Sequence record: SRR20825006_752
Reading direction: 5' to 3' (one strand)
Length of the DNA stretch: 35,142 nucleotides
The first letter of the stretch is position 1; each line of letters begins with the position of its first letter. Shown piece by piece: positions 1 to 35,142 of this stretch. The notes beneath the pieces are model-generated. The model was not told where the DNA came from. It did no database searches and saw nothing but the letters and a program-made list of their open reading frames with translations. A program made the translations under genes and the position numbers.

Positions 1-29
1 CACTGGTTCGAATCCAGTCGGGTGCACCA
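1..29 (+). tRNA. 3' end of tRNA-Arg(CCG) (T-arm, acceptor 3' strand, CCA); attL side of the prophage
   Basis: CACTGGTTCGAATCCAGTCGGGTGCACCA has a T-loop GGTTCGAATCC and ends in CCA. It joins via CACTGGTT to the anticodon-arm fragment at the window's right end, which carries anticodon CCG. Confidence 0.9.
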
Positions 30-17993: not shown

Positions 17994-18058
17994 GCCCAAT
18001 CGGCGCGCGGTCTGGGGGCTGCGCGCCTCACTCTCTCACTCAAAATATGGATTTGGAT

Positions 18059-18577: not shown

Positions 18578-18589
18578 GGGGGCCAACTT

Positions 18590-20332: not shown

Positions 20333-20352
20333 CTCAACAAAAGGGGGCCGTG

Positions 20353-20778
20353 ATGGCTGGTGATAAGGAATTCTTTGGCGGGTCGGTGCGCCGCTCGCCG
20401 GATGGTGTGACGTGGACAGAAATCCGTGGCGTCAAGGGCGTGAAAGTGCCGGATTTGTCGATCGACATGAAAACCCGCAAGTCGCTGGACTCGCCCGAAC
20501 GGGTGATCCGCAAGCGCGCGGGTTGGGCGGACCCCGGCGAATTCGAAATCGTTGTCTATGACGATGAGGGCGATATTGCTGCGGCCTATGCGGATCAAAC
20601 CCGTACTCTGTCGGGGGCGTCCACCTTTTACCAAATCGAATTTGCGAGCGGCAAAATGTGGGAATTTGAAGCCTTCCCGCTGGTGACACCGCCCGCACCG
20701 GGCGAGGTCGATGAGGATATCGAGTTCACCCTCAAAGGCGCTGTGTCGGGCCTGCCCGAATTCACTGCCGCCGCGTAA
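20353..20778 (+). CDS. Tail tube (major tail) protein
   Basis: WTEI.GV.....P, LDSP, GWADPGEFEI, FTLK..VSG.P. Confidence 0.8.
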   Translation: MAGDKEFFGGSVRRSPDGVTWTEIRGVKGVKVPDLSIDMKTRKSLDSPERVIRKRAGWADPGEFEIVVYDDEGDIAAAYADQTRTLSGASTFYQIEFASGKMWEFEAFPLVTPPAPGEVDEDIEFTLKGAVSGLPEFTAAA

Positions 20779-20805
20779 ATCCAACTCAAAACGAAAGTCG
20801 ATAAC

Positions 20806-21234
20806 ATGACGGATACGAAAAAAACTGTCCCGCTTAAAGTGGGAGAGACCACTCTTGCTGTGGCCTTCACCACCGAAGCGCAGGTCGCTTATGAGGAAAA
20901 CATGACCTGTGATTTCTCCTCTGTGCCGGAGTTCTTTGTCAATGCCTCAAGCGAGGATGCGAAGGGGCGCAAAAAGCCTGTGCGCCTGTCTGTGCGCACC
21001 ATGCGGGCGCTGCTTTGGGCTGGTCTGATGGGCGGGGACAATCCCGTTTCGATGAAACGCGCGGGCGAAATCATTGATGAGGCAGGCCATTTGCCCGTGC
21101 TGACAGCATTGAGCGAGGCCGTCGCACTGGCCTTTGGCGTGGAGGATAAGGGCGAGGCGGGAAAGCCTGCGACCGAGACACCCCCGGCGAAAAGCACAGG
21201 GAAAGCGCCCGCGATGCCCGTGCCCGCCTCTTAA
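20806..21234 (+). CDS. Tail assembly chaperone (gpG-like)
   Basis: Between tail tube and tape measure; RALLWAGL...AGEIIDE; contains in-register G GGA AAG at 21159-21165. Confidence 0.85.
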   Translation: MTDTKKTVPLKVGETTLAVAFTTEAQVAYEENMTCDFSSVPEFFVNASSEDAKGRKKPVRLSVRTMRALLWAGLMGGDNPVSMKRAGEIIDEAGHLPVLTALSEAVALAFGVEDKGEAGKPATETPPAKSTGKAPAMPVPAS

Positions 21235-21542
21235 GTCTCTGGATTGAGGCGGGGCAACCGTGGGCGCTGTTTTGGCGTCTCACGCCAGCCGAAATCTCCT
21301 TTGTTCTTGGTGCCCACGTCAAAAGCGTGGAGCGCCAAGCCAAGATGCGGCGGGCGGATATTCACGCGGTGGCCTCACTCATGGGCATAGCGTTTCACAA
21401 TCCCAAAAATCTACCGCGCGGGCGTGACTTCATAGAGGGGCGCGCCCGTTCGCGTTTCTCAAGTGAGGCGCAGATCGACGCCTATTTTCGCGGGCTGCAA
21501 AGCCTCAAGGCGTCACAAAGAAAACCACTGCAAAAACCATAA
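21159..21542 (+). CDS. gpT-like extension reached by -1 ribosomal frameshift (gpGT fusion 20806-21542)
   Basis: The -1 frame is open from the slippery heptamer to TAA 21542 and reads LWIEAGQPWALFWRLTPAEI. Confidence 0.8.
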   Translation, partial: GKACDRDTPGEKHRESARDARARLLSLWIEAGQPWALFWRLTPAEISFVLGAHVKSVERQAKMRRADIHAVASLMGIAFHNPKNLPRGRDFIEGRARSRFSSEAQIDAYFRGLQSLKASQRKPLQKP

Positions 21543-21554
21543 GGGGCGGGGCCA

Positions 21555-24554: not shown

Positions 24555-25444
24555 TGCTTGTCTGTGCGCCGATCGAGGTTTCGCTCGACAATGTGAGCGT
24601 GTCCTTGCCCGAAGATGATGCGCCGCCTTGGGCGGCTTTAAGCACCTTTGGCCTTGGCGACCGCGTTGTCCGCGATCATCGCATTTTTCAAAGTATGATC
24701 GCGGACAATATCGGGATTGATCCGGCGACTGTCGATCAATCGTTGGTCGGGGCGGAATGGCTTGAGGTGGAATACACCAATGCCTATCGCGCCTTTGACG
24801 GTGTGCTTAACAATCCAACGGTGGCCTCAGGAGGCCTAGGATTCAACATTCGGGTTGAAGAGAGTTTCGATACGCTGTTTTTGTTCGGGCTGCGAGGAGT
24901 GCAGGTCGGGGTGTGGTTCTACAATGCGGCGGATCAATTGGTTTCTGCGCGACCTTTTTCGCTTGGCGGGCGCACGGTGAATGGCTGGTGGCAGTTTTTC
25001 ACCAAAACACCTGAGCCGCGCCGCAATAAGGCGGTTTTTGATCGCGTTCCCGTGGCGGCACGGCGGGCGCAAATTTACATCTCGGGCGGGGATGTCCGCC
25101 TTGGTGAGGTGTTTCTGGGGCGCTCTTTCTATGTCGGAGACATGCAGGCCGAAACCTCTGGCCGTTCGGTCACAGCCTCGCGCTATGAGGTCAATGATTT
25201 TGGCCGCACGATCTGGACCAAACGCCCAACGCGGCGAGAAATGACCTACGTCGTCGCCGCCGACAATACCGCCTTTGAGACGATTGAGCCGCGCATGGGC
25301 GATCTGGCCGGAACGCTGGTCGCCACTGTGGGCGATCTCAAAATCCCATCCACGATCCACTTTGGGATTTTGGGCACGATCGAATGGGCCGAGGACAGCC
25401 CGGACGATTATCTTTTCTCGTTTACAATCAAGGGGGCCTCATGA
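24554..25444 (+). CDS. Tail tip / baseplate-associated protein
   Basis: Follows the tape measure gene; W.....F..GDRVV..HRIFQS small carbohydrate-binding-like motif; beta-rich. Confidence 0.6.
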   Translation: MLVCAPIEVSLDNVSVSLPEDDAPPWAALSTFGLGDRVVRDHRIFQSMIADNIGIDPATVDQSLVGAEWLEVEYTNAYRAFDGVLNNPTVASGGLGFNIRVEESFDTLFLFGLRGVQVGVWFYNAADQLVSARPFSLGGRTVNGWWQFFTKTPEPRRNKAVFDRVPVAARRAQIYISGGDVRLGEVFLGRSFYVGDMQAETSGRSVTASRYEVNDFGRTIWTKRPTRREMTYVVAADNTAFETIEPRMGDLAGTLVATVGDLKIPSTIHFGILGTIEWAEDSPDDYLFSFTIKGAS

Positions 25445-26112
25445 GCTTTACCGAAATTTTGCCCTTTAATGGGTTGTTGCCGACTGGCGATGATCCGGCA
25501 TCTTTTGATGCGCGCGCCGAAGCGCTCATGTCATGGTTGGTGGAAAATTTTGCGCCTGAAATCACCGCGTTGGCTGTGGAGATACAGACCGCCCTTGGAG
25601 GGTCGTCTGATGCGCTGACCGCCATTGCGGATTTGAGCGCCAGTTTGGGGGCCGCAGCGTATCGTGGCATATCTACAGATATGGATTTTTTGGGAGTCTC
25701 CCCGTCCGGCTTGGTCAATCGTGGGGCGATTGCGAGCTACGTTGGTGCACTGATCAAGACGATGGGCGGCAATCAATCTGGTGCGGCTCCGGTCTTTGCG
25801 GCGCGCGCTTGGGTTCATTTTTCCGGCGTAGGCACCCCGACCATCCTCGCCGGTGGGAATGTGTCGTCAATCACCGATAACGGAGTGGGAGATTACACAG
25901 TGAACTTCACCACGCCGATGCCTGATGTGAATTATGCTGTTTTGGGGACCGCAGCGTGGAATCAGGACAACGTTGCGGCGGCTGTGTTTTCCTATGCGAG
26001 AAACTGGACGAAAACCGTGTCCGCTTTTCGCTTCACCCCTTCGCAAAATATTACTGCTTCTGGAGCGTCTCCAGCGGATAGCCCGTCTGTGTCGTTGGCT
26101 TTTTTTGGGTAG
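25441..26112 (+). CDS. Short tail fibre / receptor-binding protein
   Basis: N-terminal P...DPASFDARAEA anchor; C-terminal ARAWVHFSG...NVSSITDNGVGDYTVNFTTPMPDVNYAV fibre domain. Confidence 0.75.
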   Translation: MSFTEILPFNGLLPTGDDPASFDARAEALMSWLVENFAPEITALAVEIQTALGGSSDALTAIADLSASLGAAAYRGISTDMDFLGVSPSGLVNRGAIASYVGALIKTMGGNQSGAAPVFAARAWVHFSGVGTPTILAGGNVSSITDNGVGDYTVNFTTPMPDVNYAVLGTAAWNQDNVAAAVFSYARNWTKTVSAFRFTPSQNITASGASPADSPSVSLAFFG

Positions 26113-26119
26113 GATCAAA

Positions 26120-26335
26120 ATGAACAAAAGAATTATTTATGAAAATGAAAGTGGTGGGGTCTCTGTTATAGTTCCTACCGCTTGCGGCTTGACGGTTGAA
26201 GAAATCGCGCAGAAGGACGTTCCGATTGGTGTTCCTTATAAGATTGTTGATGTGCTTGAGGTGCCGTCGGATCGAACGGATCGGGCGCTCTGGATGGTGG
26301 ATGCGGCCGATTTAACGGATGGGGTGGGAGCATGA
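26120..26335 (+). CDS. Tail-fibre-associated small protein
   Basis: IIY..E.GGVSVIVP...EEIAQKDVP.G.PYKIVD...PSDRT.R..W, commonly found after such fibres. Confidence 0.7.
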   Translation: MNKRIIYENESGGVSVIVPTACGLTVEEIAQKDVPIGVPYKIVDVLEVPSDRTDRALWMVDAADLTDGVGA

Positions 26336-26553
26336 GTATCATTTCCCTGCGCGCCAAAACCAACGATGAAATGGCCGCTGAAATTCGCGCCAAGCGCGCG
26401 CCGCTTTTGGCCGCGTCCGATTGGACGCAAATGCCAGATAGTCCTTTGAATGAGGCGCAGCGCGCGGCATGGGGCGAGTATCGCCAAGCCCTGCGGGATT
26501 TGCCAAACGCCGAGGATTTGGCAAATCTGATTTGGCCTGAAACACCAGGCTGA
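26332..26553 (+). CDS. Tail fibre assembly chaperone
   Basis: IRAKR..LLAASDWTQMPDSP...W..YRQALRDLP...WP..P. Confidence 0.85.
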   Translation: MSIISLRAKTNDEMAAEIRAKRAPLLAASDWTQMPDSPLNEAQRAAWGEYRQALRDLPNAEDLANLIWPETPG

Positions 26554-26582
26554 CACGCCGCTACAATGAGCCAACACTTACA

Positions 26583-26604
26583 CCGCCCGCTGGGCGGCTT
26601 TTTT
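26583..26604 (+). terminator. Rho-independent terminator after the tail genes
   Basis: CCGCCC-GCT-GGGCGG followed by CTTTTTT. Confidence 0.7.
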
Positions 26605-26620
26605 ATGCGAAGGGGGCAGG

Positions 26621-26947
26621 ATGCAAGATCCTCAAACGGGGTTGATCGAGGCGATCAATCGAATGGTGGGCGGGGCCGGTGTGACACTGATCGCCGCCTT
26701 TGTCGGGCGGGCAATGTTTCACGCGGGTGAGGTGCGGGCCAAGCGCCGCGCGGTGCTTTCGGTGGATCTCCTATGGGAGGTGCCGATTGCCTTCGGCATG
26801 GGGTTGGTCGGGGAGGGGCTTTCCGTTCAGCTCGATCTTTCTGACACGGCGGGCACCGCATTGATCGCGATCATCGCCTATCTCGGGCCGCGCTCGATCG
26901 GCGTGATGATTGAGGGGGCCTTGGGCCTTCGCAAGAAAGGGGGCTGA
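26621..26947 (+). CDS. Holin (LydA-like)
   Basis: 108 aa with 2-3 hydrophobic segments, LLWEVPIA.GM, AYLGPR, basic C-terminus; precedes the endolysin. Confidence 0.8.
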   Translation: MQDPQTGLIEAINRMVGGAGVTLIAAFVGRAMFHAGEVRAKRRAVLSVDLLWEVPIAFGMGLVGEGLSVQLDLSDTAGTALIAIIAYLGPRSIGVMIEGALGLRKKGG

Positions 26948-26948
26948 T

Positions 26949-27569
26949 ATGGACAGCAAAAAAGACGCGCGTCAAATTGCCGAAGAGATTGTCGCCCGCG
27001 AAGGCGGCTTTGTGAATGATCCCGCCGATCCCGGTGGGGCCACGAAATACGGTGTCACCATTGGCACCATGCAGCGCCTTGGCCTCGATCTCGATGGCTC
27101 GGGCACGATCACGGTGGCGGATGTGCGCCGCCTCACCAAGGCGCAGGCGGTCGAGATTTTCCTCGATCACTATTATCTGCGCCCGCGCATTGCAGAACTG
27201 CCAGAACAACTGCGCGCGAGCGTGTTTGATATGTATGTCAACGCCGGGGCGAATGCGGTGCGCATTCTGCAACGGCTTTTGTGCGACATGGGGCAGGTGG
27301 TGGAGGTTGACGGGGTGCTTGGGCCTCGGTCGCTTGAGGCTGCGCACAGGGCGGCAAAAGCCGCGTCGGATCACATTGCCGACGCCTATGCGATTGCGCG
27401 GCGCAACTACTATTTCCGGCTCGCGGATCAACGTCCGGCCAGTCGCAAATATGCGCGCACACGGGCAGGGGGCAAAGGTGGCTGGATATTGCGCGCCGAA
27501 GAGTTCATGTCACCGCGCTATCGTCTGACAGCGGGTGAATTTGCGGAAAGGGTCTCGGCATGGGGTTGA
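26949..27569 (+). CDS. Endolysin, glycoside hydrolase family 108 with peptidoglycan-binding domain
   Basis: REGGFVNDPADPGGATKYGVT, FDMYVNAG, VDGVLGPRS, GW..R. Confidence 0.92.
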   Translation: MDSKKDARQIAEEIVAREGGFVNDPADPGGATKYGVTIGTMQRLGLDLDGSGTITVADVRRLTKAQAVEIFLDHYYLRPRIAELPEQLRASVFDMYVNAGANAVRILQRLLCDMGQVVEVDGVLGPRSLEAAHRAAKAASDHIADAYAIARRNYYFRLADQRPASRKYARTRAGGKGGWILRAEEFMSPRYRLTAGEFAERVSAWG

Positions 27570-28135
27570 TTGGAAAAGCACTCGATAAGCTCGGCGGTGG
27601 GGCCGTGGGCAAGGTCTCCGGCGCGGTGCGCGATGTGGCCGAGGTTTGGACCGTCAACGCCGAAGAGGCGGACGGGCGCGACGCAGAGGCATTGCGGGCG
27701 GCGCTGACGCAGTACGGCGCGGAGTTTGGCGGGGCAGGGTGGTTTAACGCCCTGATGGATGGAATGAACCGCCTGCCGCGCCCGCTGATGACATTTGGCG
27801 TCTTGGGTCTCTTGGGGGCCTCGATGGTGGACCCTGTTTGGTTCGGCGCGCGCATGACCGGCCTCGCCTTGGTGCCCGATCCGCTGTGGTGGATCATCGG
27901 TGCGGTGGTGTCGTTCTACTTCGGCTCGCGCCACGTCGAAAAGCGCCTTGCCGTGGGGGCCGTCCAGCACGTTGCCGAAGTGGCAACGCGGGTTCCGAAA
28001 GTGGTGCAAGCCGTGCGCGCGATCGAGGCGCTGACACCCAAGGCAGCGGATTCGGGCGGTGATAGCGCCGCAACAATCGACGCGGTTCAGGTCGGGGATA
28101 ATCCGGCGCTTGAGGCTTGGAAGGTTGGAAAGTGA
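27560..28135 (+). CDS. GTA-type 3TM holin family protein
   Basis: DGMNRLPRPLMTFG...MVDPVWF..RM.GL.LVPDPLWWIIGAVVSFYFGSR. Confidence 0.85.
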   Translation: MGLIGKALDKLGGGAVGKVSGAVRDVAEVWTVNAEEADGRDAEALRAALTQYGAEFGGAGWFNALMDGMNRLPRPLMTFGVLGLLGASMVDPVWFGARMTGLALVPDPLWWIIGAVVSFYFGSRHVEKRLAVGAVQHVAEVATRVPKVVQAVRAIEALTPKAADSGGDSAATIDAVQVGDNPALEAWKVGK

Positions 28136-28140
28136 TTGGC

Positions 28141-28161
28141 CCGCCCGCGTGATGCGGGCGG
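28141..28161. terminator. Hairpin ending the lysis operon; boundary between phage backbone and cargo
   Basis: CCGCCCGC-GTGAT-GCGGGCGG; weak U-tract; base composition shifts after it. Confidence 0.45.
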
Positions 28162-28274
28162 ACAGTTTGCCTTCAAGGTCAGAGCGGTAAGAAGTACCTA
28201 GGAAAATGGACCACAACGCTTTCTAAAAATCTGCTCGGATTGCCAAAGGGCGAAGATGGCTCTAGAAATCGCTC

Positions 28275-28631
28275 ATGCTGATCATGGTTTGCGCTCTCAT
28301 TTCTGTTGTCGATGGTGATACCGTCAAATGCGATGGTCAAAGTATCCGTCTTATTGGCGACGGTGCTCCTTTTAAATCAGGCTTTGATACACCAGAAACC
28401 TACAGACCCAAGTGTCAGCAAGAGTTGGAACTTGGGCGCGCCGCAACTGCGCGTATGAGACAGCTTGTCCTTGACGCAGTGGGTATTGAGGACACAGGCC
28501 AACATGACAGATACGGACGCGTTTTGGGTCGTCTGGTATTGAAAAATGGCAAAACTGCTGGGGAAGTTCTTATTGAAGAGGGCTACGCAGTTCGTTGGAA
28601 GCCGAAAGCCAAAATTGATTGGTGCCGATAA
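28275..28631 (+). CDS. Thermonuclease (SNase-like) family protein
   Basis: VVDGDTV, IRL, FDTPET, DRYGRVLG, LIEEGYAV, C-terminal WC. Confidence 0.88.
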   Translation: MLIMVCALISVVDGDTVKCDGQSIRLIGDGAPFKSGFDTPETYRPKCQQELELGRAATARMRQLVLDAVGIEDTGQHDRYGRVLGRLVLKNGKTAGEVLIEEGYAVRWKPKAKIDWCR

Positions 28632-28721
28632 GTGTAGCTTTTAATACTCGTTAATGTCTTAATAGGCGCAGTTTTTAAGCTGATTGGTTTTCCAAATCGG
28701 CAGGATCAGGATTTTTAAACA

Positions 28722-29018
28722 ATGGCCAAGATAATAATCGCGGCGCTAATTGTGCTTTGTGGAATTGTATCGGCAACAGCCGAAACTCCGAATTTATCTC
28801 TGCCCACTGTAAGCACAGATGCCGTCGAATTTGTCGGCAACAGCGAAAGCGCTAGCACGTATTGGAGCGACGTGTTCGCCTCTTCAAACCAACAAGAAAA
28901 GATTTGGGCAGTTGCCTGCTGCAAAGTTTGCAAGAAGGGTAAGGCTTGTGGCGACTCTTGTATCAGTCGATCCTACAACTGCACCAAGGGCGTTGGCTGC
29001 GCTTGTAATGGATACTAA
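28722..29018 (+). CDS. Secreted protein with an 8-Cys C-terminal domain
   Basis: Signal peptide MAKIIIAALIVLCGIVSATA; CCKVCKKGKACGDSCISRSYNCTKGVGCAC. Confidence 0.75.
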   Translation: MAKIIIAALIVLCGIVSATAETPNLSLPTVSTDAVEFVGNSESASTYWSDVFASSNQQEKIWAVACCKVCKKGKACGDSCISRSYNCTKGVGCACNGY

Positions 29019-29020
29019 CT

Positions 29021-29089
29021 AAGGGCGGGAAGCCGACCTTCGCCGCGGGCATGATCTATGCACTGCCCCAAGATGAAGCGGACATTTGC
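29021..29089. repeat. Cassette-junction site family, left of the retron
   Basis: GAAGCCGACCTTCGC (29029-29043) and GAAGCGGACATTTGC (29075-29089), related to sites at 31845-32007 and 34139-34161. Confidence 0.65.
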
Positions 29090-29301
29090 AAGAGTGCATA
29101 ATGGCTAGTCTCTTGTGTTCTGTCTTAGACATTTTGCGAGTGTTTTGAACAGCATCGCGCGGCAAGGTACCCGGTCTGAATCTGCACGTTTTGGCAAAAG
29201 GAGGGTTGCAAACTTGTTGTTCCTATCAAAGGAATTAACTAAGTTGTTGCGGGCGAATGTAATTCTACTTAGCTTGGGCGAAAAGGTTCCAGCGTGAGAT
29301 T

Positions 29302-30174
29302 TTGTTTCTGCTGCGCCCTTCAGTTTACCAAGGGTCTGCGAAGGTGCTAGACGATAATCAGATCAATGAATGGTTGTTCGAATTGATGTTAAAACGCGAG
29401 GTTCTCGAAGGATTTGAACGACCAATCCGCGAGCTCGTCAAAATCTGTAAATCTGTTGAGGAATTTCATTTAGTCGCGCACACAGTGGAGAACTTAATTG
29501 TGCTGACGTCTGGTCAAATGTCCAAACAGCTCAACACAATGTCGGACTACATAAAAGATGAAATTGATGATGGCTCACCCCTAGCCATTGTCGCTATGGC
29601 TTGGGGGAACAGCCCTGATAGCTCTCAGGCTTTGGTGCAAATGCTTAAGCCGAAGTTTCGCCGTCTTGAAAATATAAAATTTTTTAACAGCGTCCCCGAA
29701 TACGAGAAGAAGTCATACATTGAAAAATATCCCAAGTTTGTTCTTGTCGATGACTTTGCGGGAACGGGGAATACCGTTTTGGGTCGTCTAGAACACATAT
29801 TGAAACACGCTAAAGGAAAAAAAGTTAATGTAGACCCGCACGTTTGCTTGCTGTTTGGGATGGCAAAAGCATTTGAGACTGTGTCCGCGCAGCTCGGAGC
29901 AACCCACTTTTGCAACAGGATCAAAGCTGGAATTAGCGGATACTTCGCGGGAGAGGAACTGACCCAAAGGATTTCCAACATGAAGCGGCTGGAGGAAGAG
30001 CTGGCTACAGACATAGACGGTCACCCCATGCCGTCTTTAGGCCATGGAGAGGCGGAAGCTCTGTTCTTTGTTAAGGACGGAAATGCTCCTAACTCCAACT
30101 TTCCGATTTTTTGGTGGCCAAAGGACGTCGACAACCTCGACCGTTACACCGTGATGGAGCGCGCAGAACTATGA
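29302..30174 (+). CDS. Retron-associated phosphoribosyltransferase-like effector (start may be GTG 29344)
   Basis: PRPP-binding loop FVLVDDFAGTGNT; C-terminal SLGHG...LFF....PNSNFPIFWW; operonic with the winged-helix gene and RT. Confidence 0.85.
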   Translation: MFLLRPSVYQGSAKVLDDNQINEWLFELMLKREVLEGFERPIRELVKICKSVEEFHLVAHTVENLIVLTSGQMSKQLNTMSDYIKDEIDDGSPLAIVAMAWGNSPDSSQALVQMLKPKFRRLENIKFFNSVPEYEKKSYIEKYPKFVLVDDFAGTGNTVLGRLEHILKHAKGKKVNVDPHVCLLFGMAKAFETVSAQLGATHFCNRIKAGISGYFAGEELTQRISNMKRLEEELATDIDGHPMPSLGHGEAEALFFVKDGNAPNSNFPIFWWPKDVDNLDRYTVMERAEL

Positions 30175-30542
30175 ACGAAGTAAAGCTGACTAGTGTAGAG
30201 ATCGTACTTCTTAAAGCTGCACTCCGCTTGCCCGATGGTGTCTTCGTAGGTGGAATAACGGCAAAAATGGGCATCTCCATGAGCGATGCTGTCTCCGCGT
30301 TCAGACGTTTAAGGCGCCACGGTTTTCTAAAGCAAAAAGGTGCTTCACTCCACCTTACCAGCCGTGGACGTGGCTGGATTATGGAGAACCAAAGCCTGTT
30401 CGCGTTCGCTGGCGAAAAAAACTGGCGCAGAGTGCCTGAGAGTTTTCGGGCCAATAAAATTCGCCCTTTTGAACCTTATGCGCCTCGCACCTCGAAGCTG
30501 TCGCGAACGGCTTTTGATGTTGGCGGGACTGGCGGAGAATGA
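30171..30542 (+). CDS. Retron-associated winged-helix protein
   Basis: ATGA-coupled to the PRTase; ITAKMGISMSDAVSAFRRLRRHGFL....SLHLTSRGR wHTH. Confidence 0.82.
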   Translation: MNEVKLTSVEIVLLKAALRLPDGVFVGGITAKMGISMSDAVSAFRRLRRHGFLKQKGASLHLTSRGRGWIMENQSLFAFAGEKNWRRVPESFRANKIRPFEPYAPRTSKLSRTAFDVGGTGGE

Positions 30543-30554
30543 TATGATTAGGCA

Positions 30555-30792
30555 AGAATGGTCGGCGTTAGCGTATAGAAGTGTAGTCGCTTCTACGGTT
30601 AAGGCTCTCGATAACCTGTCGAGAACTCGTTTTTTGAGTTACTCAAAAAGCCGAGTTCTCGTGAGCTCTTCTTCCGAAGGCTCCATATGGGAAACGAAGA
30701 AATTTTTGTTTTTTACTCAAAAACAAAAATTCTCCGATGCCCATATGGCAGCGATGCAAGCATCGAATTGAACAGGTAGCGTCGACCATTCT
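30555..30792 (+). ncRNA. Retron msr-msd ncRNA
   Basis: 16-bp terminal arms AGAATGGTCGGCGTTA (30555-30570) / TAGCGTCGACCATTCT (30777-30792, two G-U pairs); unpaired G30571 right after the 5' arm; msr stem-loops 30576-30595 and 30606-30624; long hairpins 30621-30660 and 30683-30748. Confidence 0.9.
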
Positions 30793-31833
30793 ATGAATTT
30801 TTCAACAGTAAACGCGTGGGAAGCTTACTTCCGAGACATCGGGATCCGGCAGGAGTTGTCCGCCTCCTACATGCCTTTTGTTCGATCATGTATAAAGCGC
30901 GGTATACCGCCGATTTTTGAGCATGAGCACTTGGCCATGCTGCTTGGGTTAGAGGTCGGTACACTGATGTCTATGGTAGAAGCGACTGACAGTTTCTACA
31001 GGACCTTTAAGTTAAAAAAAAGGTCGGGAGGCTTCCGCGAAATTAGAGCGCCATATCCATCCCTTCTTGAAGCTCAGCGTTGGATCAATGAGCATATTCT
31101 GAAAACGGTGAAGCTCCCCAATTGCGTGACTGGTTTTAGGGAAAAGTACTCGATCCTCGATAACGCCCGAATGCACTGCGGACGCGATGAGCTTGTGAAG
31201 ATGGACATTGAAGACTTCTTTCCATCGATTGGCTTTCGAAGGGTCATGTTTGTTTTTGTGAGCCTTGGCTACCCGCAGAACGTCTCCTACACCCTCAGTA
31301 AGCTTTGTTGCCTTGAAGACCAATTGCCGCAAGGAGCCGCAACCAGCCCAACATTGAGCAATATCATCTGTGGAAATATGGATCGGCACTTTTACAAAAT
31401 TTGCAAGAAACATAGGCTCCGATACACGAGATATGCAGACGATATTGCTGTTTCGGGCAAAGAGATACCATCGGGCATCCGTCGCTTACTTTTTGAAATA
31501 ATTGAGAGCGAAGGGTTTAGGGTAAACGAATCTAAGGTTAGATTTTTAGAAAAAGGCGATAGAAAAATCGTCACCGGATTGGATATTTCGTCAGGCAAAC
31601 CGAGGGTCACTCGTAAATTCCGTCGCGAATTGAAAAAGGATGTGTATTTTGTTTGGTCCGCCGGCCTGTCAACACATGTTGCTCGCCGCAAAATTTTTGC
31701 TCCGAACTACATCGATCACTTAGAGGGTCGCGTTCAGTTTTGGGCGAGTATTGAGCCTGATAACGTTCAGATGCAAAAAACCTTGGAGCGTGTCGAGCAT
31801 CTACGGTCCATCTACGGAAGATCAAGGTTCTAA
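30793..31833 (+). CDS. Retron reverse transcriptase
   Basis: KKRSGGFREI.AP, region X NARMH, MDIEDFFPSI, LPQGAATSP.LSN, YTRYADD, region Y VTG. Confidence 0.96.
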   Translation: MNFSTVNAWEAYFRDIGIRQELSASYMPFVRSCIKRGIPPIFEHEHLAMLLGLEVGTLMSMVEATDSFYRTFKLKKRSGGFREIRAPYPSLLEAQRWINEHILKTVKLPNCVTGFREKYSILDNARMHCGRDELVKMDIEDFFPSIGFRRVMFVFVSLGYPQNVSYTLSKLCCLEDQLPQGAATSPTLSNIICGNMDRHFYKICKKHRLRYTRYADDIAVSGKEIPSGIRRLLFEIIESEGFRVNESKVRFLEKGDRKIVTGLDISSGKPRVTRKFRRELKKDVYFVWSAGLSTHVARRKIFAPNYIDHLEGRVQFWASIEPDNVQMQKTLERVEHLRSIYGRSRF

Positions 31834-31844
31834 ACTTTGCGCGT

Positions 31845-32007
31845 GCGGCGAACGTCCTGAATGCGGGCTGCAATCGCAGCATCCAGATCTCATTGCGGAG
31901 GTCAGCACTGGGCCGAAAGTGACGTTCAATACCAAGGGCAGGAACTCTAAGCGCGTGAACAACGGCCCGCCTTGCCGATGTTCTGTTTTGCTGCGAATGT
32001 CGGCTTC
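31845..32007. repeat. Cluster of cassette-junction sites between retron and RM module
   Basis: GCGGCGAACGTCC (31845), GCGGAGGTCAGCACTGGGCCGAAAGTGACGTTC (31895-31927), hairpin GCCGATGTTC...GAATGTCGGC (31974-32004). Confidence 0.65.
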
Positions 32008-32603
32008 TATTTTCCGGCGACAAACGCGCCCGACTTAACAGCTATTACCAGTAGGGGGCATCCACCCGCGCCTCCCCCATCGATTTTAGGAATAAGCTTA
32101 TTAAGGTGCGTCGTGGATGCACCGTACTTGCTACCGATGTTAAGTGGCTTGAAAACATCAGCCTGCAAACCAGAGTCGCGAGTCACGATGATCCCGACAC
32201 TAATTGCGCCTAGCGTGTGGAGCATACGGAAGTTGTTGAGGTCACGATCATAGAACTCGGTCTTGTTATTCCATTCAATGTCGAGCGCGATGCGTCCCTT
32301 AACGCAATCAATCTTATGGGTGGGGGTCGCATAGGTTACACCATCAATCACCGTGGCTGTATCAAAGCCCTTTTCAGCCCAGCCTCGCTTGTACAGCGCG
32401 CCATCGAGGAAGCCTGAGACTAGGGACTTCCCTCCACCGCCTTGCGTAATGCTACTTTCCCTCAACTCAAATGCGCCGAGGACTTCACACAGGTCTTCGA
32501 ACTGTTCAGGGAATTCACCCTTCAAAATCGCCAAGGCATGACGCCATTCCATAATGCCGTATTTGTCCGAGAAACCTGCCGGGAAATAACTGTACGGGTC
32601 CAT
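32007..32603 (-). CDS. BglII/BstYI-family type II restriction endonuclease
   Basis: GGGKS, GWAEK, HKIDCVKGRIALDIEWNNK..FYDRDLNNFR, KYGASTTH..KL.P...GG.GGCP. Confidence 0.85.
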   Translation of the reverse strand: MDPYSYFPAGFSDKYGIMEWRHALAILKGEFPEQFEDLCEVLGAFELRESSITQGGGGKSLVSGFLDGALYKRGWAEKGFDTATVIDGVTYATPTHKIDCVKGRIALDIEWNNKTEFYDRDLNNFRMLHTLGAISVGIIVTRDSGLQADVFKPLNIGSKYGASTTHLNKLIPKIDGGGAGGCPLLVIAVKSGAFVAGK

Positions 32604-32604
32604 A

Positions 32605-32859
32605 TTAGCCTTCACTCAATTTCAGTTCTTGCTCAAACTGTGCGACGAAGTCGAGCAGGCTAACACCGCAGCAAAGAGCAATCTCTCGCACTTCGATCAA
32701 GGTTAACTTCCGTTGTCCAGCCTCATATTTCGAGACATAGCTTTGGGGATGCCCAAGCTTTCTGGAAAGCTGCGTTTGCGTTAGCTGCGCAGTTACTCTG
32801 ATACCGATCAGTATCTCTCGTTGAATTGTGTTCTGCACGTCTTGCTTATCGGTAGCCAT
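32605..32859 (-). CDS. XRE-family HTH controller protein of the RM module
   Basis: LTQTQLSRKLGHPQSYVSKYEAGQRKL; directly upstream of and co-oriented with the endonuclease. Confidence 0.88.
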   Translation of the reverse strand: MATDKQDVQNTIQREILIGIRVTAQLTQTQLSRKLGHPQSYVSKYEAGQRKLTLIEVREIALCCGVSLLDFVAQFEQELKLSEG

Positions 32860-32878
32860 TTTTCCACTTGACCCAGAG

Positions 32879-32933
32879 ACTCCGTCCGCATAGAAAACAC
32901 TATCCCGTTTTGGAATAGTGTTTACACCGGAGT
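32879..32933. promoter_or_regulatory. Palindromic operator between the divergent controller/endonuclease and methyltransferase genes
   Basis: AAACACTAT (32895-32903) / ATAGTGTTT (32915-32923) around TATCCCGTTTTGGAATA; outer ACTCCG/CGGAGT. Confidence 0.7.
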
Positions 32934-32977
32934 GCGAAGCCTTGCTCACAACTGTCCAAGACTCACCATGCCTGAAA

Positions 32978-34144
32978 GTGCAAGAATACCCAAGCCTCAT
33001 AAAGTACATGGGGTCCAAGTCCAAGATCATGGGATTTGTCCTTGGTGGTATCAATCACGTGCGCGACGACCGCCCTATATGCGACTTATTCTCTGGGAGC
33101 GGCTCTCTATCAGGTGCGATTGGGCAACAAGCTACCGTGGTGTCTAATGACATTCAGGCCTACTCCGGCTTGCTTGCTGATACATACAACCGGGCATATC
33201 GGGACCAGTCGACTCCTAGCGCCGATCAACTATTGGGTCTCGCTGCTGAAATCCTAGAGCGTCGTAAGCGCAAGTTGGTGGTGGACTATGGTAGTGATAT
33301 GCCCTTCGCGGTCTTCAATGAGCATGAGGAACGCCAGAGGGCGCTCTTGACCCAAGACTTCGATTATAGGTGGCACCTGTTCGCCAAGAACTACTCTGGA
33401 ACGTGGTGGAGCTATGAGCAATGCCTCTGGATTGATGCCCTTAGGGAAGTTGCTGAGGGCTACCGATCCAAGCCTATTTATCCTGCCATAATGTCTTCGC
33501 TGATGTTCGCAATGGCCTACGCAAGCCAAGGTACAGGGCATTACGCTCAGTATCGGGACGCCAAAACAAACTCGTCGCATAAGGACATTTTGATTTATCG
33601 GAAGCGCTCCATTGGTCAGTATTTCCAGAGGAAATACAACGACGTGTTGCAGTACATTCCTAACAAGCCCGTAATCGCGCGCCATCAATCAACGGCACTT
33701 GATTTTAAGGATTGTCTAAAAAACTTTGGTGGAGGCACAGTCTATGCGGACCCTCCGTATTGCTTCGTCCATTACAGCCGTTTCTATCATGCTCTGGAAA
33801 CACTAGTCTTGTATGACTTTCCGAAGCTTCAAGTCCAAAGGGGAAAAGTCGTCAAAGGACGTTATCGCGAAGAGCGCCACCAGTCTCCTTTCTGTATTCA
33901 GTCTCAAGTTCGCGGCGCATTTGAAGACCTTTTTAATGGCGTCAGGGCAAGCAACTCGTCTCTCGTGCTCAGCTATTCAAATACAGGTATGATTTCCTTG
34001 GACGAACTTCTTTCTATTGGCAGGAAAGCTCTGCCCAATTGGAAAATTGAAGTACTGACCACCGATCACGAGCACATGACAATGGGGCGAAAAGAGGATC
34101 GCCAACGCAGTGTAAAGGAGGGGTTACTTCTGGCACACGCGTAA
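32978..34144 (+). CDS. D12-class N6-adenine DNA methyltransferase (start uncertain: GTG 32978 or 32918)
   Basis: KYMGSK, DLFSGSG, SNDIQ, YADPPY, YSRFYH.LETL, LSYSN. Confidence 0.9.
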   Translation: MQEYPSLIKYMGSKSKIMGFVLGGINHVRDDRPICDLFSGSGSLSGAIGQQATVVSNDIQAYSGLLADTYNRAYRDQSTPSADQLLGLAAEILERRKRKLVVDYGSDMPFAVFNEHEERQRALLTQDFDYRWHLFAKNYSGTWWSYEQCLWIDALREVAEGYRSKPIYPAIMSSLMFAMAYASQGTGHYAQYRDAKTNSSHKDILIYRKRSIGQYFQRKYNDVLQYIPNKPVIARHQSTALDFKDCLKNFGGGTVYADPPYCFVHYSRFYHALETLVLYDFPKLQVQRGKVVKGRYREERHQSPFCIQSQVRGAFEDLFNGVRASNSSLVLSYSNTGMISLDELLSIGRKALPNWKIEVLTTDHEHMTMGRKEDRQRSVKEGLLLAHA

Positions 34145-34161
34145 GGTCGGCTCGGGGCCGC
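34139..34161. repeat. Cassette-junction half site between convergent stop codons
   Basis: GCGTAAGGTCGGCTCGGGGCCGC fills nearly the whole 21-bp gap; shares AAGGTCGGCT with the reverse complement of 29031-29040. Confidence 0.55.
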
Positions 34162-34165
34162 TTAT

Positions 34166-34678
34166 TTACTGCCTCTCCTCAGAAAAGGCCAAAGCTTCTA
34201 TCGCATAGTCCAGCGCGTCTTTTGTTGATGAGAAGCAATAGTGGACCTCACTCCATGCGGCGCTTGGTATGAGGAAACGAGTTTCGGATATTTCTATCGC
34301 TTGGTTCTCCAAGAAATGGTTCATGCCTTTGAAGCTGATGATCGCGTTTGCGATGATATCGACCTCATTAAGTTCTAGTAGCCCCAAGTCGGAAGAAAGG
34401 CTGTCAGAAAGAAGCCCACTCACTCTCCCAATTGAAATAGACTCATTGCTAGGGTTGCTTATTTCAAGGTTTTTCCCAAGCGCTCTGGCATAGTTTCTAA
34501 ACTCTGCCGCGAGGATACGGCGCAGCGCTTGCCGTTTTGTTTCAACCTGGCGAGCATGATCCTCTCTCGCATGTCTGGCGTTGGCGTTTAAGGTCCAAAT
34601 GACCCCAAGGAATCCGATGATCCCGACAAACGAGGTCTGAAAACGATCTGCAAACTCTATGGCTTCAGCAATGGTCAA
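34166..34678 (-). CDS. Hypothetical protein with one N-terminal TM helix and a helical soluble domain
   Basis: SFVGIIGFLGVIWTL followed by a charged coiled coil; 170 aa. Confidence 0.75.
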   Translation of the reverse strand: MTIAEAIEFADRFQTSFVGIIGFLGVIWTLNANARHAREDHARQVETKRQALRRILAAEFRNYARALGKNLEISNPSNESISIGRVSGLLSDSLSSDLGLLELNEVDIIANAIISFKGMNHFLENQAIEISETRFLIPSAAWSEVHYCFSSTKDALDYAIEALAFSEERQ

Positions 34679-34853
34679 CGCGACTTCCGTTCGTAAAAAT
34701 AGATTAGAAGGGAAGAATGCAAAATCCTGTAGGCATGAGCAAGTGTGTTCGCTGATTGAGGCTCTGCCAAATTTTCGTGTCTCTTGAGTAGTCCGATTTA
34801 CGAAGTGTCCCTAGGTTCCGTGAACCTGTTGAACCTAAACTATGCTTGAAAAA

Positions 34854-34892
34854 TGGCCCAAAGGAGCCGTTTAAAAACAGTCCCTTGGGCCA
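34854..34892. other. Imperfect inverted repeat / hairpin near attR
   Basis: TGGCCCAAAGGA...TCCCTTGGGCCA. Confidence 0.4.
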
Positions 34893-35019
34893 GAAAACAA
34901 TGGGTTGGCGGCTACTTGCTTCGTTTATACTGAAGGACGCTCAAGTTTGAAATGCGCACTCACACGTGCACGCGAAAATAGCAAGATGGGCACCGTCCAA
35001 GTAAGGGCGCGTCATTTCA

Positions 35020-35031
35020 GTTACGCGTAAC
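35020..35031. repeat. Second copy of the GTTACGCGTAAC palindrome
   Basis: Identical to 73-84. Confidence 0.6.
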
Positions 35032-35112
35032 CGAAACATGCCAAACCAACTCCTGCGAACCATGATCAAATTAGGTGTAAAGGGGGATCATTAGGCGAAC
35101 ATTGCACTTGGA

Positions 35113-35142
35113 GCTGCCCTCCGAAGGCAGAGGCCACTGGTT
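35113..35142 (+). repeat. attR: duplicated 3' part of tRNA-Arg(CCG), cut by the window end
   Basis: GCTGCCCTCCGAAGGCAGAGGCCACTGGTT is an anticodon arm (CTGCC-CT CCG AA-GGCAG) plus the T-arm start; no D-arm or 5' acceptor strand upstream. Confidence 0.88.

What the first reader, a model, noticed from the sequence alone, without database searches (positions are those of the whole stretch)
29302..31833. Complete prophage-borne PRTase + winged-helix + ncRNA + RT retron (type III-A-like)
Seen: four adjacent co-oriented parts. The RT has the retron-specific NAxxH and VTG motifs, and the ncRNA lies inside the operon, ending at the base before the RT ATG. Established: PRTase-like plus winged-helix effectors define type III-A retrons, and retrons act in anti-phage abortive infection. 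Inference: the winged-helix protein reads msDNA and gates a nucleotide-depleting PRTase. The trigger and chemistry of this class are poorly characterised to my knowledge. The 3' arm covers the RT ribosome-binding region, so folding or processing may control RT translation.
Basis: partly seen in the sequence, partly recalled or inferred. Interest (0 to 1): 0.8.

Follow-up and report, generated by a model that had tools for sequence, protein, structure and literature searches.

The report
Type III-A retron on a prophage
This is a complete, intact anti-phage retron of an already described type, with a reverse transcriptase, a structured RNA and a two-protein phosphoribosyltransferase effector, carried as cargo at one end of an integrated phage; it is real and well formed but ordinary.

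Summary
PADLOC gives PRTase_III-A 2.4e-63, WH_III-A 3.1e-17 and RT_III-A 6.5e-126. The RT has NARMH, YADD and VTG.

The 250-nt gap holds a structured RNA:
- Its MFE z-score is -9.7.
- A 16-nt a1/a2 stem (30555-70/30777-92) ends one base before the RT ATG.
- G30571 is unpaired, in an invariant TAG.
- Across five relatives, 31 of 90 pairs covary.

All 10 relatives with upstream DNA keep the order PRTase-WH-RNA-RT.

The element is bounded by tRNA-Arg-derived repeats, with an integrase at the left end. The retron lies in a low-GC cargo arm beside a BglII-like restriction-modification system.

It is a split-effector type III-A retron, probably III-A2. The fused sister type, Retron-Eco11 (III-A3), has been characterised: phage helicases trigger it and PRPP is depleted (PMC12746101).

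Two corrections or additions:
- The PRTase more likely starts at GTG 29344.
- A promoter-like site lies just upstream of a1.

Related III-A retrons already sit on IMG/VR phage contigs.

Verdict: a new member of a known kind, of modest interest.

The parts
29302..30174 (+). PRTase-like effector gene. The longest ORF starts at TTG 29302; the likelier start is GTG 29344 (276 aa). The PRPP-loop motif DDFAGTG is at 29749-29769 and PNSNFP at 30088-30105.
   Evidence: PADLOC PRTase_III-A 2.4e-63 and Pfam PRTase-CE 1.4e-18. Motif positions. Homologue lengths and starts. AlphaFold2 pLDDT 95.2; Foldseek top hits are orotate, uracil and purine PRTases at E 4e-5 to 4e-4. Invariant residues in 48 sequences.
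30171..30542 (+). Small winged-helix protein (123 aa). Its start overlaps the PRTase stop (ATGA). It has a conserved C-terminal peptide EPYAPRxSKL..F.
   Evidence: PADLOC WH_III-A 3.1e-17. The model has wHTH topology with pLDDT 80-91 over residues 11-70 and a low-confidence tail. Top Foldseek hits are MarR-type wHTH at E 1.7e-3 and weaker. Y103, P105 and F115 are invariant in 15 sequences. The family has 632 representatives at E<=1e-3.
30520..30548 (+). Promoter-like site (TTGGCG, 17 nt, TATGAT, with TG before the -10) ending 6 nt before a1. Tentative promoter for ncRNA-RT.
   Evidence: Consensus scan: 2 sites found against 3.6 +/- 1.7 in shuffles, so not significant alone. The same TTGGNN-17-TAnnnn spacing to a1 appears in the 5 close relatives (my reading of sequences printed). 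TTGACA-like boxes lie upstream of a1 in IMG/VR relatives.
30555..30570 (+). a1, the 5' arm of the ncRNA closing stem.
   Evidence: Inverted repeat I2. 16 pairs, 3 of them with compensatory change, 95% of cells paired.
30571..30571 (+). Predicted branching G: the unpaired G of an invariant TAG next to the a1/a2 stem.
   Evidence: Unpaired in the consensus fold. T-A-G is invariant in 14 of 14. Its position is analogous to the branching G described for Eco11 (PMC12746101, section 26). The branching itself was not tested.
30572..30618 (+). Conserved msr module: SL1 (30572-30597) and SL2 (30601-30618), with invariant G.G..TCGC and TnAGG.
   Evidence: Covariance model R1 hits only PRTase-linked loci: 16 of 62 sources, and 0 of the other 46.
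30620..30661 (+). Long hairpin HP3 (42 nt). Probably the third msr stem-loop; alternatively part of the msd.
   Evidence: 20 pairs, 7 with compensatory change. The apex sequence is conserved.
30663..30682 (+). Short hairpin or linker. Predicted region of the msr 3' end and of the RNA-DNA duplex.
   Evidence: 3 of 3 helix pairs covary. The role is inferred by analogy with Eco11.
30683..30749 (+). Long hairpin HP5 (67 nt). Predicted main msd stem-loop, comparable to the 69-nt DSLb of Eco11.
   Evidence: 28 pairs, 16 with compensatory change. Inverted repeat I1. The Eco11 comparison comes from PMC12746101, section 26.
30753..30767 (+). Small invariant hairpin SL6. Predicted msd 5' stem-loop, comparable to the 13-nt DSLa of Eco11.
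   Evidence: 5 pairs that never vary in 5 sequences.
30777..30792 (+). a2, the 3' arm of the closing stem. It ends one base before the RT ATG.
30793..31833 (+). Retron reverse transcriptase (346 aa). NARMH is at 31162-31176, YADD at 31432-31443 and VTG at 31570-31578.
   Evidence: PADLOC RT_III-A PDLC02943 6.5e-126. Pfam RVT_1. The closest solved chain is the Ec86 RT at 3.3e-41. Motifs.
1..29 (+). tRNA 3' end (T-arm, acceptor, CCA). This is the left copy of the attachment repeat, and the integrase gene 329-1162 (-) follows it.
   Evidence: Sequence printed. Integrase phrog_1 6e-23.
35114..35142 (+). Right copy of the attachment repeat: the anticodon arm (CCG), variable loop and start of the T-stem of a tRNA-Arg-like sequence. 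Its last 8 nt equal the window's first 8 nt.
   Evidence: In run X4 a contig carries a tRNA D-arm sequence directly before 35113 (table 7).
32007..34144 (.). Neighbouring cargo: a BglII-like restriction endonuclease (32007-32615, -), an HTH controller-like protein (32605-33054, -) and a D12 N6-adenine methyltransferase (32918-34144, +).
   Evidence: Pfam Endonuc-BglII 1.6e-36, HTH_3 4.3e-11 and MethyltransfD12 4.9e-13.

Best explanation
This is an intact split-effector type III-A retron, most likely subtype III-A2. It is carried as cargo in the low-GC right arm of a tRNA-Arg-integrating temperate tailed phage. The host is probably a member of the Rhodobacterales.

Shown here:
- The genes, their order and their family membership.
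- A conserved, covarying ncRNA with an a1/a2 stem, an unpaired invariant G and a family-specific msr module.
- The location inside an att-bounded prophage next to an RM system.

Inferred by analogy with Retron-Eco11 (III-A3) and Ec86:
- The ncRNA-RT unit is transcribed, possibly from its own promoter at 30520-30548.
- The RT primes from the 2'-OH of G30571 and copies about 95-100 nt, running from about 30776 back to about 30680. This gives an msDNA with a small hairpin and a 67-nt hairpin.
- RT-msDNA binds the PRTase and the WH protein, which together equal the 413-aa fused Eco11 effector in length, and keeps the PRTase inactive.
- A protein of a superinfecting phage that remodels the msDNA, such as a helicase, activates the PRTase.
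- The active PRTase consumes PRPP and stops nucleotide synthesis, so the infected cell aborts the infection.

Because a2 occupies the last 16 nt before the RT ATG, a1/a2 pairing probably limits RT translation.
For: Family models:
- PRTase_III-A 2.4e-63, WH_III-A 3.1e-17 and RT_III-A 6.5e-126, each matching nearly the full model.
- Pfam PRTase-CE scores above its cut-off.

RT and PRTase motifs:
- The RT has NARMH, YADD and VTG. The PRTase has the PRPP-loop motif DDFAGTG.
- F138, G140, G142 and the NAPNSNFPIFWWP block are invariant or nearly so in 48 homologues.

Folds:
- PRTase model pLDDT 95.2, with type I PRTases as the top PDB matches.
- WH model with wHTH topology and MarR-type top hits.

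RNA:
- MFE z-score -9.67.
- 90-pair consensus, 31 pairs compensatory, 92.5% of cells paired against 41-43% when slid, 0 of 500 shuffles as high.
- TAG is invariant in 14 of 14.
- The msr model hits 16 of 62 sources, all PRTase-linked, and none of the other 46.

Synteny:
- PRTase upstream of the RT in 10 of 10 relatives that have upstream DNA. WH was detected by tblastn in 8 of those 10.

Subtype:
- 7 of 7 PRTase-linked relatives and the window score best on PDLC02943.
- An Ec107-like (clade 2) RT scores next-best on a different model, PDLC02942.
- The nearest solved RT is Ec86, which is clade 9.
- Mestre 2020, Table 1, places the split effector with a clade 9 RT in III-A2.

PRTase-WH contact:
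- Complex prediction gave weak support only: score 0.43, best of 3 controls 0.02.
- That mark was reached by 51 of 78 solved complexes and 2 of 108 mismatched pairs.
- At 0.60 or under it was reached by only 5 of those 78 solved complexes and by all 4 mismatches that passed (of 180).
- The runs agree in at least 55% of contacts, and the partner's pLDDT is at least 65.

Prophage context:
- Integrase, CI-like repressor, terminase, portal, major head, tape measure and endolysin.
- GC falls from 0.62-0.66 to 0.40-0.55 at about 28,150.
- tRNA-derived repeats lie at both ends.
- A 17,881-nt contig in run X1 spans 17262-35142 without a difference.

Mechanism literature:
- PMC12746101 (abstract, sections 26 and 35).
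Against: - No msDNA or RNA evidence exists. No run listed as holding the stretch is on record as RNA, and only contigs could be laid.
- The retron-PRTase signature differs from the Gx14PNNxP given for Eco11. Here it is G-x15-PNSNFP.
- NCBIfam places the RT just under the retron_St85 cut-off, at 229 bits against 235.
- The Pfam hits of the WH protein are below their cut-offs, and its Foldseek matches are all weaker than E 1e-3.
- The complex prediction gives only weak support.
- The promoter-like site is not more than shuffles give.
- The mapping of PADLOC sub-models to III-A1 and III-A2 is my inference, not something any tool output states.
- The one split-effector III-A retron tested for defence that I found, Retron-Bpu1, made RT-DNA but showed no defence against an E. 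coli phage panel (PMC12548924, passages).
- PRPP depletion has been shown only for the fused III-A3 effector, whose PRTase belongs to another cluster (67_3, against 113 for split forms).
Confidence: 0.85

Rival explanations
1. The subtype is III-A1 (RT clade 2, sister of Ec107-like RTs) rather than III-A2. All else is the same.
For: III-A1 also has a separate PRTase and WH protein (Mestre 2020, Table 1). Pfam PRTase-CE was the commonest accessory domain listed for III-A1 in a 2026 survey (PMC13712802, passage). The RT_Ec107-like model still scores 250.8 bits.
Against: The best RT model, PDLC02943 at 417.6 bits, differs from the III-A model that an Ec107-like RT scores next-best, PDLC02942. The nearest solved RT is Ec86, which is clade 9. 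Clade 2 is reported mostly from Gammaproteobacteria, whereas the relatives here are Alphaproteobacteria, Bacteroidota and phage contigs.
Confidence: 0.2
2. The effector chemistry differs from that of Eco11. The PRTase-like enzyme might act on another substrate, for example by phosphoribosylating or cleaving a nucleotide, a cofactor or a nucleic acid, rather than killing by PRPP depletion.
For: The PRTase belongs to a different cluster from the Eco11 effector (113 against 67_3). It matches the fused-type PADLOC models only weakly, at 3.3e-11 and 1.6e-4. The signature motif differs by one residue. No solved relative was found by sequence.
Against: The PRPP-binding loop is conserved. The fold matches type I PRTases. 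RT, ncRNA architecture and WH partner are shared with III-A3.
Confidence: 0.2
3. The msDNA is longer and includes HP3. The msd would then run from about 30776 back to about 30620, roughly 157 nt with two long DNA hairpins.
For: HP3 behaves like an msd stem. The base of its stem varies with compensation in 7 pairs. Its apex shares a 31-nt stretch at 71% identity with the HP5 apex (repeat D1).
Against: Eco11 has three msr stem-loops and a 101-nt msd of 13 + 69 nt (PMC12746101, section 26). That fits SL1, SL2 and HP3 as msr, and SL6 and HP5 as msd. The HP3 apex is conserved in sequence, as msr elements are.
Confidence: 0.2
4. The retron is host DNA next to the prophage and was wrongly included in the viral record.
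For: GC drops at about 28,150. The closely related provirus record G001 stops at the position equivalent to 28,135. The retron's neighbours are not shared with its relatives.
Against: The retron lies between the lysis genes and the right-hand tRNA-derived repeat, whose partner and an integrase are at the left end. A D-arm junction seen in X4 shows that the repeat is part of a real tRNA. G001 is cut at gene ends, so it says nothing about what follows.
Confidence: 0.05
5. The cassette is present but no longer works as a defence system. It may be decaying, or kept for another role.
For: There is no expression data. Bpu1 showed no defence in E. coli. Relatives do decay: the Albidovulum RT has an in-frame TAG, and a Pseudoprimorskyibacter MAG keeps only the 3' half of the RT.
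Against: All three ORFs are full length against their models. The catalytic and signature residues are intact. The RNA structure is maintained by compensatory change.
Confidence: 0.07

Closest known systems
Type III-A2 (and III-A1) retrons of Mestre et al. 2020 (PMC7736814, Table 1): RT plus ncRNA plus a PRTase-like protein plus a separate C-terminal winged-helix protein
   Same: The gene set and order are the same: PRTase, WH, ncRNA, RT. The best PADLOC III-A models are hit for all three proteins. The msr module is conserved across relatives from Alphaproteobacteria, Bacteroidota and phage contigs.
   Different: Nothing structural differs. The choice of A2 over A1 is inferred. The Rhodobacterales subclade has a longer ncRNA, 229-238 nt against 160-194 nt between the core arms in five distant members. 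It also has a 42-nt third hairpin and an a2 that abuts the RT start codon.
Retron-Eco11 (type III-A3; PMC12746101)
   Same: It has a PRTase-like effector with a PRPP loop, a wHTH module and a conserved C-terminal Tyr/Pro peptide. Its ncRNA lies between effector and RT and overlaps the RT start region, with the branching G next to the inverted repeats. Its msd consists of a small and a roughly 69-nt hairpin. PRTase (290 aa) plus WH (123 aa) here add up to 413 aa, the length of the Eco11 effector.
   Different: In Eco11 the effector is one fused protein of PRTase cluster 67_3. Here there are two genes of the cluster-113 type. The signature is PNSNFP with one more residue of spacing than Gx14PNNxP. 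The C-terminal peptide is EPYAPRxSKL rather than YYPxxLRxx. Triggers and PRPP depletion are shown only for Eco11.
Retron-Eco1 / Ec86 (type II-A3)
   Same: It is the closest solved RT, at 3.3e-41 over residues 36-294. Mestre 2020 assigns it to RT clade 9. Its effector also carries a C-terminal winged helix, which the literature reports to contact msDNA (PMC12746101, sections 26 and 35).
   Different: Its effector is a nucleoside deoxyribosyltransferase-like protein, not a PRTase. Its ncRNA type is different.
Retron-Bpu1 and Retron-Ppe1 (type III-A with PRTase and WH; PMC12548924)
   Same: They are natural III-A retrons with separate PRTase and WH genes. RT-DNA production was shown for Bpu1.
   Different: Their hosts are Bacillus and Pseudomonas. 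Bpu1 showed no defence against the E. coli phages tested, and Ppe1 could not be transformed into E. coli (passages). I did not have their sequences to compare.
Phage-borne retrons in defence hotspots (for example the P2-like gpA-portal slot)
   Same: IMG/VR contig L061 carries a PDLC02943-type PRTase-WH-RT retron between a gpA replication gene and the portal and terminase genes. Retrons as prophage cargo are therefore established.
   Different: Here the carrier is a lambdoid-style siphophage-like prophage. The retron lies between the lysis genes and attR, next to an RM system.

Membership tests
Retron (general) | Reverse transcriptase of the retron lineage with YxDD and the retron-typical NAxxH and VTG motifs | tested here: met
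   The top 25 PADLOC hits listed are all retron RT models, the best at 6.5e-126. NARMH is at residue 124, YADD at 214 and VTG at 260. That these motifs are retron-typical is recalled knowledge, not a call result.
Retron (general) | Adjacent ncRNA with terminal inverted repeats (a1/a2) and an unpaired branching G at the inner end of the stem | tested here: met
   16-nt a1/a2 stem. G30571 is unpaired. TAG is invariant in 14 of 14. Covariation was measured.
Retron (general) | Production of msDNA branched from the G | not testable with these tools
   Only assembled contigs of public runs were available, and no RNA run was listed.
Type III-A retron | PRTase-like effector encoded next to the RT | tested here: met
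   PRTase_III-A 2.4e-63 and PRTase-CE 68.2 bits. The fold matches type I PRTases. The PRPP loop is conserved.
Type III-A retron | Winged-helix DNA-binding module, separate or fused | tested here: met
   WH_III-A 3.1e-17. wHTH topology in the model. MarR-type structural matches, all weaker than E 1e-3.
Type III-A retron | Retron-PRTase signature Gx14PNNxP, as given for Eco11 and cluster 67_3 | tested here: inconclusive
   A clearly homologous but shifted form is present: G233-x15-P249 N S N F P254. It is invariant or nearly invariant in 48 sequences.
Type III-A retron | Type IIIA ncRNA fold | tested here: inconclusive
   The architecture matches the text description of Eco11: three msr stem-loops, then a small and a roughly 69-nt msd hairpin. 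The curated IIIA covariance models were not available. Rfam has no retron match here.
Subtype III-A2 | RT of clade 9 with separate PRTase (cluster 113_4) and WH (cluster 1121_1) | tested here: inconclusive
   Separate genes: met. RT clade: the nearest solved RT is Ec86, and the best sub-model differs from the one nearest to an Ec107-like RT. No labelled reference tree could be built. Supplements of Mestre 2020 were closed.
Prophage cargo | Location between phage genes and the attachment repeat of an integrated phage | tested here: met

The most novel reading that the evidence does not exclude
A temperate phage of marine Rhodobacterales uses a split-effector III-A2 retron together with a BglII-like RM system as a superinfection-exclusion island. 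In this subclade the ncRNA-RT unit has its own promoter inside the end of the WH gene. RT synthesis is self-limited because the a1/a2 stem buries the RT start region. The extra 42-nt hairpin is a subclade-specific sensor or effector-docking element. If the III-A2 assignment holds, the cassette could also be an efficient donor-DNA producer for genome editing.
Probability: 0.2. Interest if true: 0.45.

Novelty: new member of a known kind. Interest (0 to 1): 0.3.

Why it matters
It adds a clean, apparently intact, phage-carried example of the split PRTase + WH retron class. I found no trigger or defence phenotype in print for that class. The nearest tested case, Bpu1, was negative in E. coli.

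It also gives a covariation-supported RNA model with a defined candidate branching G. That makes the standard tests straightforward.

The Eco11 paper states that III-A2 retrons supported human-cell editing at more than 50 times the rate of Retron-Eco1 (passage, citing a census I could not verify in its main text). Members of this family may therefore have tool value.

It does not change the picture of how retrons work.

Tried and rejected
- Rfam, E-value mode over 28000-33000: only four microRNA-family matches, all far below their gathering scores, caused by the long hairpin.
- blastn of 29000-32000 against GenBank phages: no match.
- tblastn of the PRTase against the same phages: no match.
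- tblastn of the RT against the same phages: 39 records, all under 60% identity, best 41.8%.
- The RT-only pattern scan of IMG/VR found nothing. The PRTase alignment scan did find loci.
- The window's own assembly is not held. The nearest record, G001, has no RT match, and its record ends before the cargo arm.
- No RNA holder was listed among 13 runs that hold the stretch or part of it.
- Run X6 holds a phage 90-95% alike up to about 29,164 and shows next to no cover over the retron and RM. No contig joins across, so this is not evidence that the cargo is variable.
- The 29-nt tRNA 3' pattern was not found, with up to 2 mismatches, in five relatives' genomes.
- Looking for fused PRTase-WH forms with the WH profile: the best 150 of 632 hits are all 98-153 aa stand-alone proteins. 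No fusion was seen among those listed.
- Pfam found no family in 9 of 10 early-region phage ORFs, so nothing can be said about a self-encoded helicase.
- The census preprint's main text has no usable mention of type III.
- Earlier notes of this scan held nothing on this genome, and nothing that changed my reading.
- Antisense ORFs inside the retron (29625-30014, 30089-30454, 31012-31413, 31607-32023) were considered and dropped, because they lie opposite conserved coding frames.


Full report
**Observation.** The region 29302-31833 holds three co-oriented ORFs and a 250-nt non-coding gap.

PADLOC models assign the three ORFs as follows:
- PRTase_III-A: PDLC02932, 2.4e-63, residues 23-288 on model positions 7-271 of 271.
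- WH_III-A: PDLC02975, 3.1e-17.
- RT_III-A: PDLC02943, 6.5e-126, model positions 2-319 of 322.

Pfam agrees for the PRTase (PRTase-CE, 68.2 bits, cut-off 27) and the RT (RVT_1). Its matches to the WH protein are below their cut-offs. The RT has NARMH (residue 124), YADD (214) and VTG (260). The PRTase has the PRPP-loop motif DDFAGTG and a PNSNFP block. That NAxxH and VTG are retron hallmarks is recalled knowledge.

One correction concerns the PRTase start.
- Homologues of the PRTase are mostly 275-278 aa.
- The start codons of three relatives align to window residue 14.
- GTG 29344, with AAGGG nine bases upstream, is therefore a better start than TTG 29302.
- The WH ATG (30171) overlaps the PRTase stop.

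**The RNA.** Folding of 30543-30795 gives -103.5 kcal/mol, against -61.1 +/- 4.4 for 200 shuffles (z = -9.67).
- A 16-nt inverted repeat, 30555-30570 with 30777-30792, closes the structure.
- Its 3' arm ends at 30792, and the RT ATG is at 30793.
- Rfam has no relevant family.

I collected relatives from one-per-species genomes, metagenomes, IMG/VR and samples of the order and family of one relative's genome.

In a five-sequence alignment (window, L001, L002, L050 and L051; RT identity 64-68%), RNAalifold predicts 90 pairs, 31 of them with compensatory change. Counting on that structure gives:
- 92.5% of cells paired, against 41-43% with partners slid by 1-3 columns.
- 31 pairs with a change on both sides, against 2-7 when slid.
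- 0 of 500 shuffles reaching any observed measure.

The caveat is that the structure came from the same alignment and the sequences are related.

The helices are:
- a1/a2.
- SL1 (30572-97) and SL2 (30601-18), both nearly invariant in sequence.
- A 42-nt hairpin (30620-61).
- A short hairpin (30663-82).
- A 67-nt hairpin (30683-30749), with 16 covarying pairs.
- An invariant 15-nt hairpin (30753-67).

G30571 is unpaired between a1/a2 and SL1. It sits in a TAG that is invariant in 14 of 14 aligned relatives, together with G.G..TCGC and TnAGG.

A covariance model of this 5' module was tested on 62 sources.
- It hit 16 of them, all of which have the PRTase gene. Fourteen were training sequences and two are copies of one of them.
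- It hit none of the other 46 RT-bearing sources.
- This shows that the module is specific. It is not an independent rediscovery.

**Synteny.** All 10 relatives with upstream DNA have a PRTase homologue upstream of the RT. tblastn also finds the WH protein in 8 of the 10. The retron's other neighbours are not shared with relatives, so the cassette moves as a unit.

**Proteins.**
- The PRTase model (pLDDT 95.2) matches orotate, uracil and purine PRTases, at E from 4e-5.
- No solved relative is found by sequence.
- The WH model has helix-helix-helix-wing topology, with confidence 80-91 over residues 11-70 and a poorly defined tail. Its best PDB matches are MarR-type wHTH proteins, all at E of 1.7e-3 or weaker.
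- The WH tail carries a conserved peptide, EPYAPRxSKL..F, with Y103, P105 and F115 invariant in 15 sequences. It is reminiscent of the C-terminal peptide described for the Eco11 and Ec86 effectors (PMC12746101, section 26).
- The WH family is large and stand-alone. It has 632 representatives at E<=1e-3, and the best 150 are all 98-153 aa.
- A complex prediction of PRTase with WH gave weak support only: score 0.43, best of 3 controls 0.02. The mark was reached by 51 of 78 solved complexes and 2 of 108 mismatched pairs. At 0.60 or under it was reached by only 5 of those 78 and by all 4 mismatches that passed (of 180). The runs agree in at least 55% of contacts, and the partner's pLDDT is at least 65.

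**Subtype.** Mestre et al. 2020 (Table 1 text) define the subtypes this way:
- III-A1: clade 2 RT with separate PRTase and WH.
- III-A2: clade 9 RT with separate PRTase and WH.
- III-A3 to III-A5: fused forms.

The evidence here is:
- The window and 7 of 7 tested PRTase-linked relatives score best on PDLC02943.
- An Ec107-like (clade 2) RT scores next-best on PDLC02942 instead.
- The nearest solved RT is Ec86, which is clade 9.

I therefore favour III-A2, at about three to one. The mapping of PADLOC sub-models to subtypes is my inference.

**Context.** The window is a prophage.
- It encodes an integrase (329-1162), a CI-like S24 repressor, large terminase, portal, major head protein, tape measure and endolysin.
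- The window starts with the last 29 nt of a tRNA (T-arm, acceptor, CCA). It ends with an anticodon arm (CCG), variable loop and the same 8 nt with which the window begins.
- In run X4 a contig has a tRNA D-arm sequence directly before 35113. The repeat is therefore the 3' two-thirds of a real tRNA-Arg gene.
- GC falls from 0.62-0.66 to 0.40-0.55 at about 28,150 and stays low to the end.

This 7-kb arm holds:
- an SNase-like gene;
- a small Cys-rich secreted protein;
- the retron;
- a BglII-like endonuclease with an HTH protein and a D12 methyltransferase;
- an unknown 170-aa ORF.

In run X1, which is not marked as a possible source of this DNA, one 17,881-nt contig covers 17262-35142 without a difference. 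It links tail genes, retron, RM and the right end.

'Prophage-borne' is thus supported. It is not new. IMG/VR holds five loci (three distinct) with PRTase-WH-RT of the same sub-model, and one of them lies between a P2-type gpA gene and the portal and terminase genes.

**Mechanism.** What is shown here is anatomy. The steps themselves are inferred from the characterised relatives. For Retron-Eco11, which is III-A3 with a fused 413-aa effector, the published findings are (PMC12746101; abstract, sections 26 and 35):
- ncRNA, RT and effector are all needed for defence.
- The T4 UvsW and T5 D10 helicases trigger toxicity.
- PRPP is depleted.
- The msd is 101 nt, with a 13-nt and a 69-nt hairpin.
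- The msr has three short stem-loops.

The window's RNA has the same layout. I therefore predict:
- The msd runs from about 30776 back to about 30680.
- SL1, SL2 and the 42-nt hairpin form the msr.
- PRTase and WH together (290 + 123 = 413 aa) act as the two lobes of the effector, held inactive on RT-msDNA.

In all 14 members the a2 arm ends from 16 nt before the RT start codon to a few bases past it.

A promoter-like site at 30520-30548 ends 6 nt before a1. It is no more than shuffles give. Its spacing recurs in the five close relatives (my reading), and clearer boxes precede a1 in the IMG/VR relatives.

**What is known, and novelty.** The type was defined in 2020, and a sister subtype has been worked out mechanistically.
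- For split-effector III-A retrons I found RT-DNA production but no defence phenotype or trigger (PMC12548924, passages; searches).
- Supplements were closed. The reference lists of Mestre 2020 may already contain these very relatives.
- This is a new member of a known kind.

**Against my reading.**
- There is no msDNA or RNA evidence.
- The PRTase signature is shifted by one residue relative to Eco11.
- The WH annotations are weak outside PADLOC.
- The complex prediction is weak.
- The subtype mapping is inferred.
- The only tested split-type retron that I found showed no defence in E. coli.

Noticed in passing
window 3687-4556 (-): A DUF3800 protein (Pfam 1.1e-14) is encoded directly beside the CI-like S24 repressor gene (4557-5195). 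Mestre 2020 lists DUF3800 as the effector of type VII retrons, so this may be a second defence-type gene in the immunity region of the prophage.
   Followed up: no
window 32007-34144: A BglII-like restriction endonuclease and an HTH protein lie on the minus strand. They face a D12 N6-adenine methyltransferase on the plus strand, a layout like that of a controller-regulated type II RM system. It begins 173 nt downstream of the retron RT.
   Followed up: partly
window 28275-29018: An SNase-like nuclease gene (28275-28631) and a 98-aa protein with a signal-peptide-like N-terminus and a Cys-rich C-terminus (28722-29018, no family) lie between the lysis genes and the retron.
   Followed up: no
window 1-29 and 35114-35142: The window begins and ends inside the two copies of a tRNA-Arg(CCG)-derived attachment repeat, and the same 8 nt stand at both ends. 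The window is therefore almost exactly one prophage unit.
   Followed up: partly
L003 4034-4555 (same place as L057): A Pseudoprimorskyibacter MAG keeps only the 3' half of this RT, 92% identical in DNA to window 31331-31832. Directly upstream lies a 424-aa ORF on the opposite strand whose sequence looks integrase-like by eye (no family search was run; recalled signature). This is a retron remnant cut by another mobile element.
   Followed up: partly
G002:C31:4518-5531 (= L001 RT): The Albidovulum copy of the RT has one in-frame TAG. It is either a pseudogene or a sequencing error.
   Followed up: no
L061 2494-10735: An IMG/VR contig carries a retron of the same PADLOC sub-model between a P2-type gpA replication gene and the portal and terminase genes, which is a known phage defence hotspot.
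   Followed up: partly
window 30630-30660 and 30704-30734: The apical parts of the two long ncRNA hairpins share a 31-nt direct repeat at 71% identity, including TTACTCAAAAA. Its meaning is unknown.
   Followed up: no
L002 517-2115: In Lutimaribacter the retron lies next to an HTH protein and a Mob_Pre-like relaxase (28.4 bits, cut-off 25.5). This suggests a mobilisable element rather than a phage.
   Followed up: no
window 34166-34678 (-): A 170-aa ORF with no Pfam or NCBIfam match lies between the RM system and the right attachment repeat.
   Followed up: no
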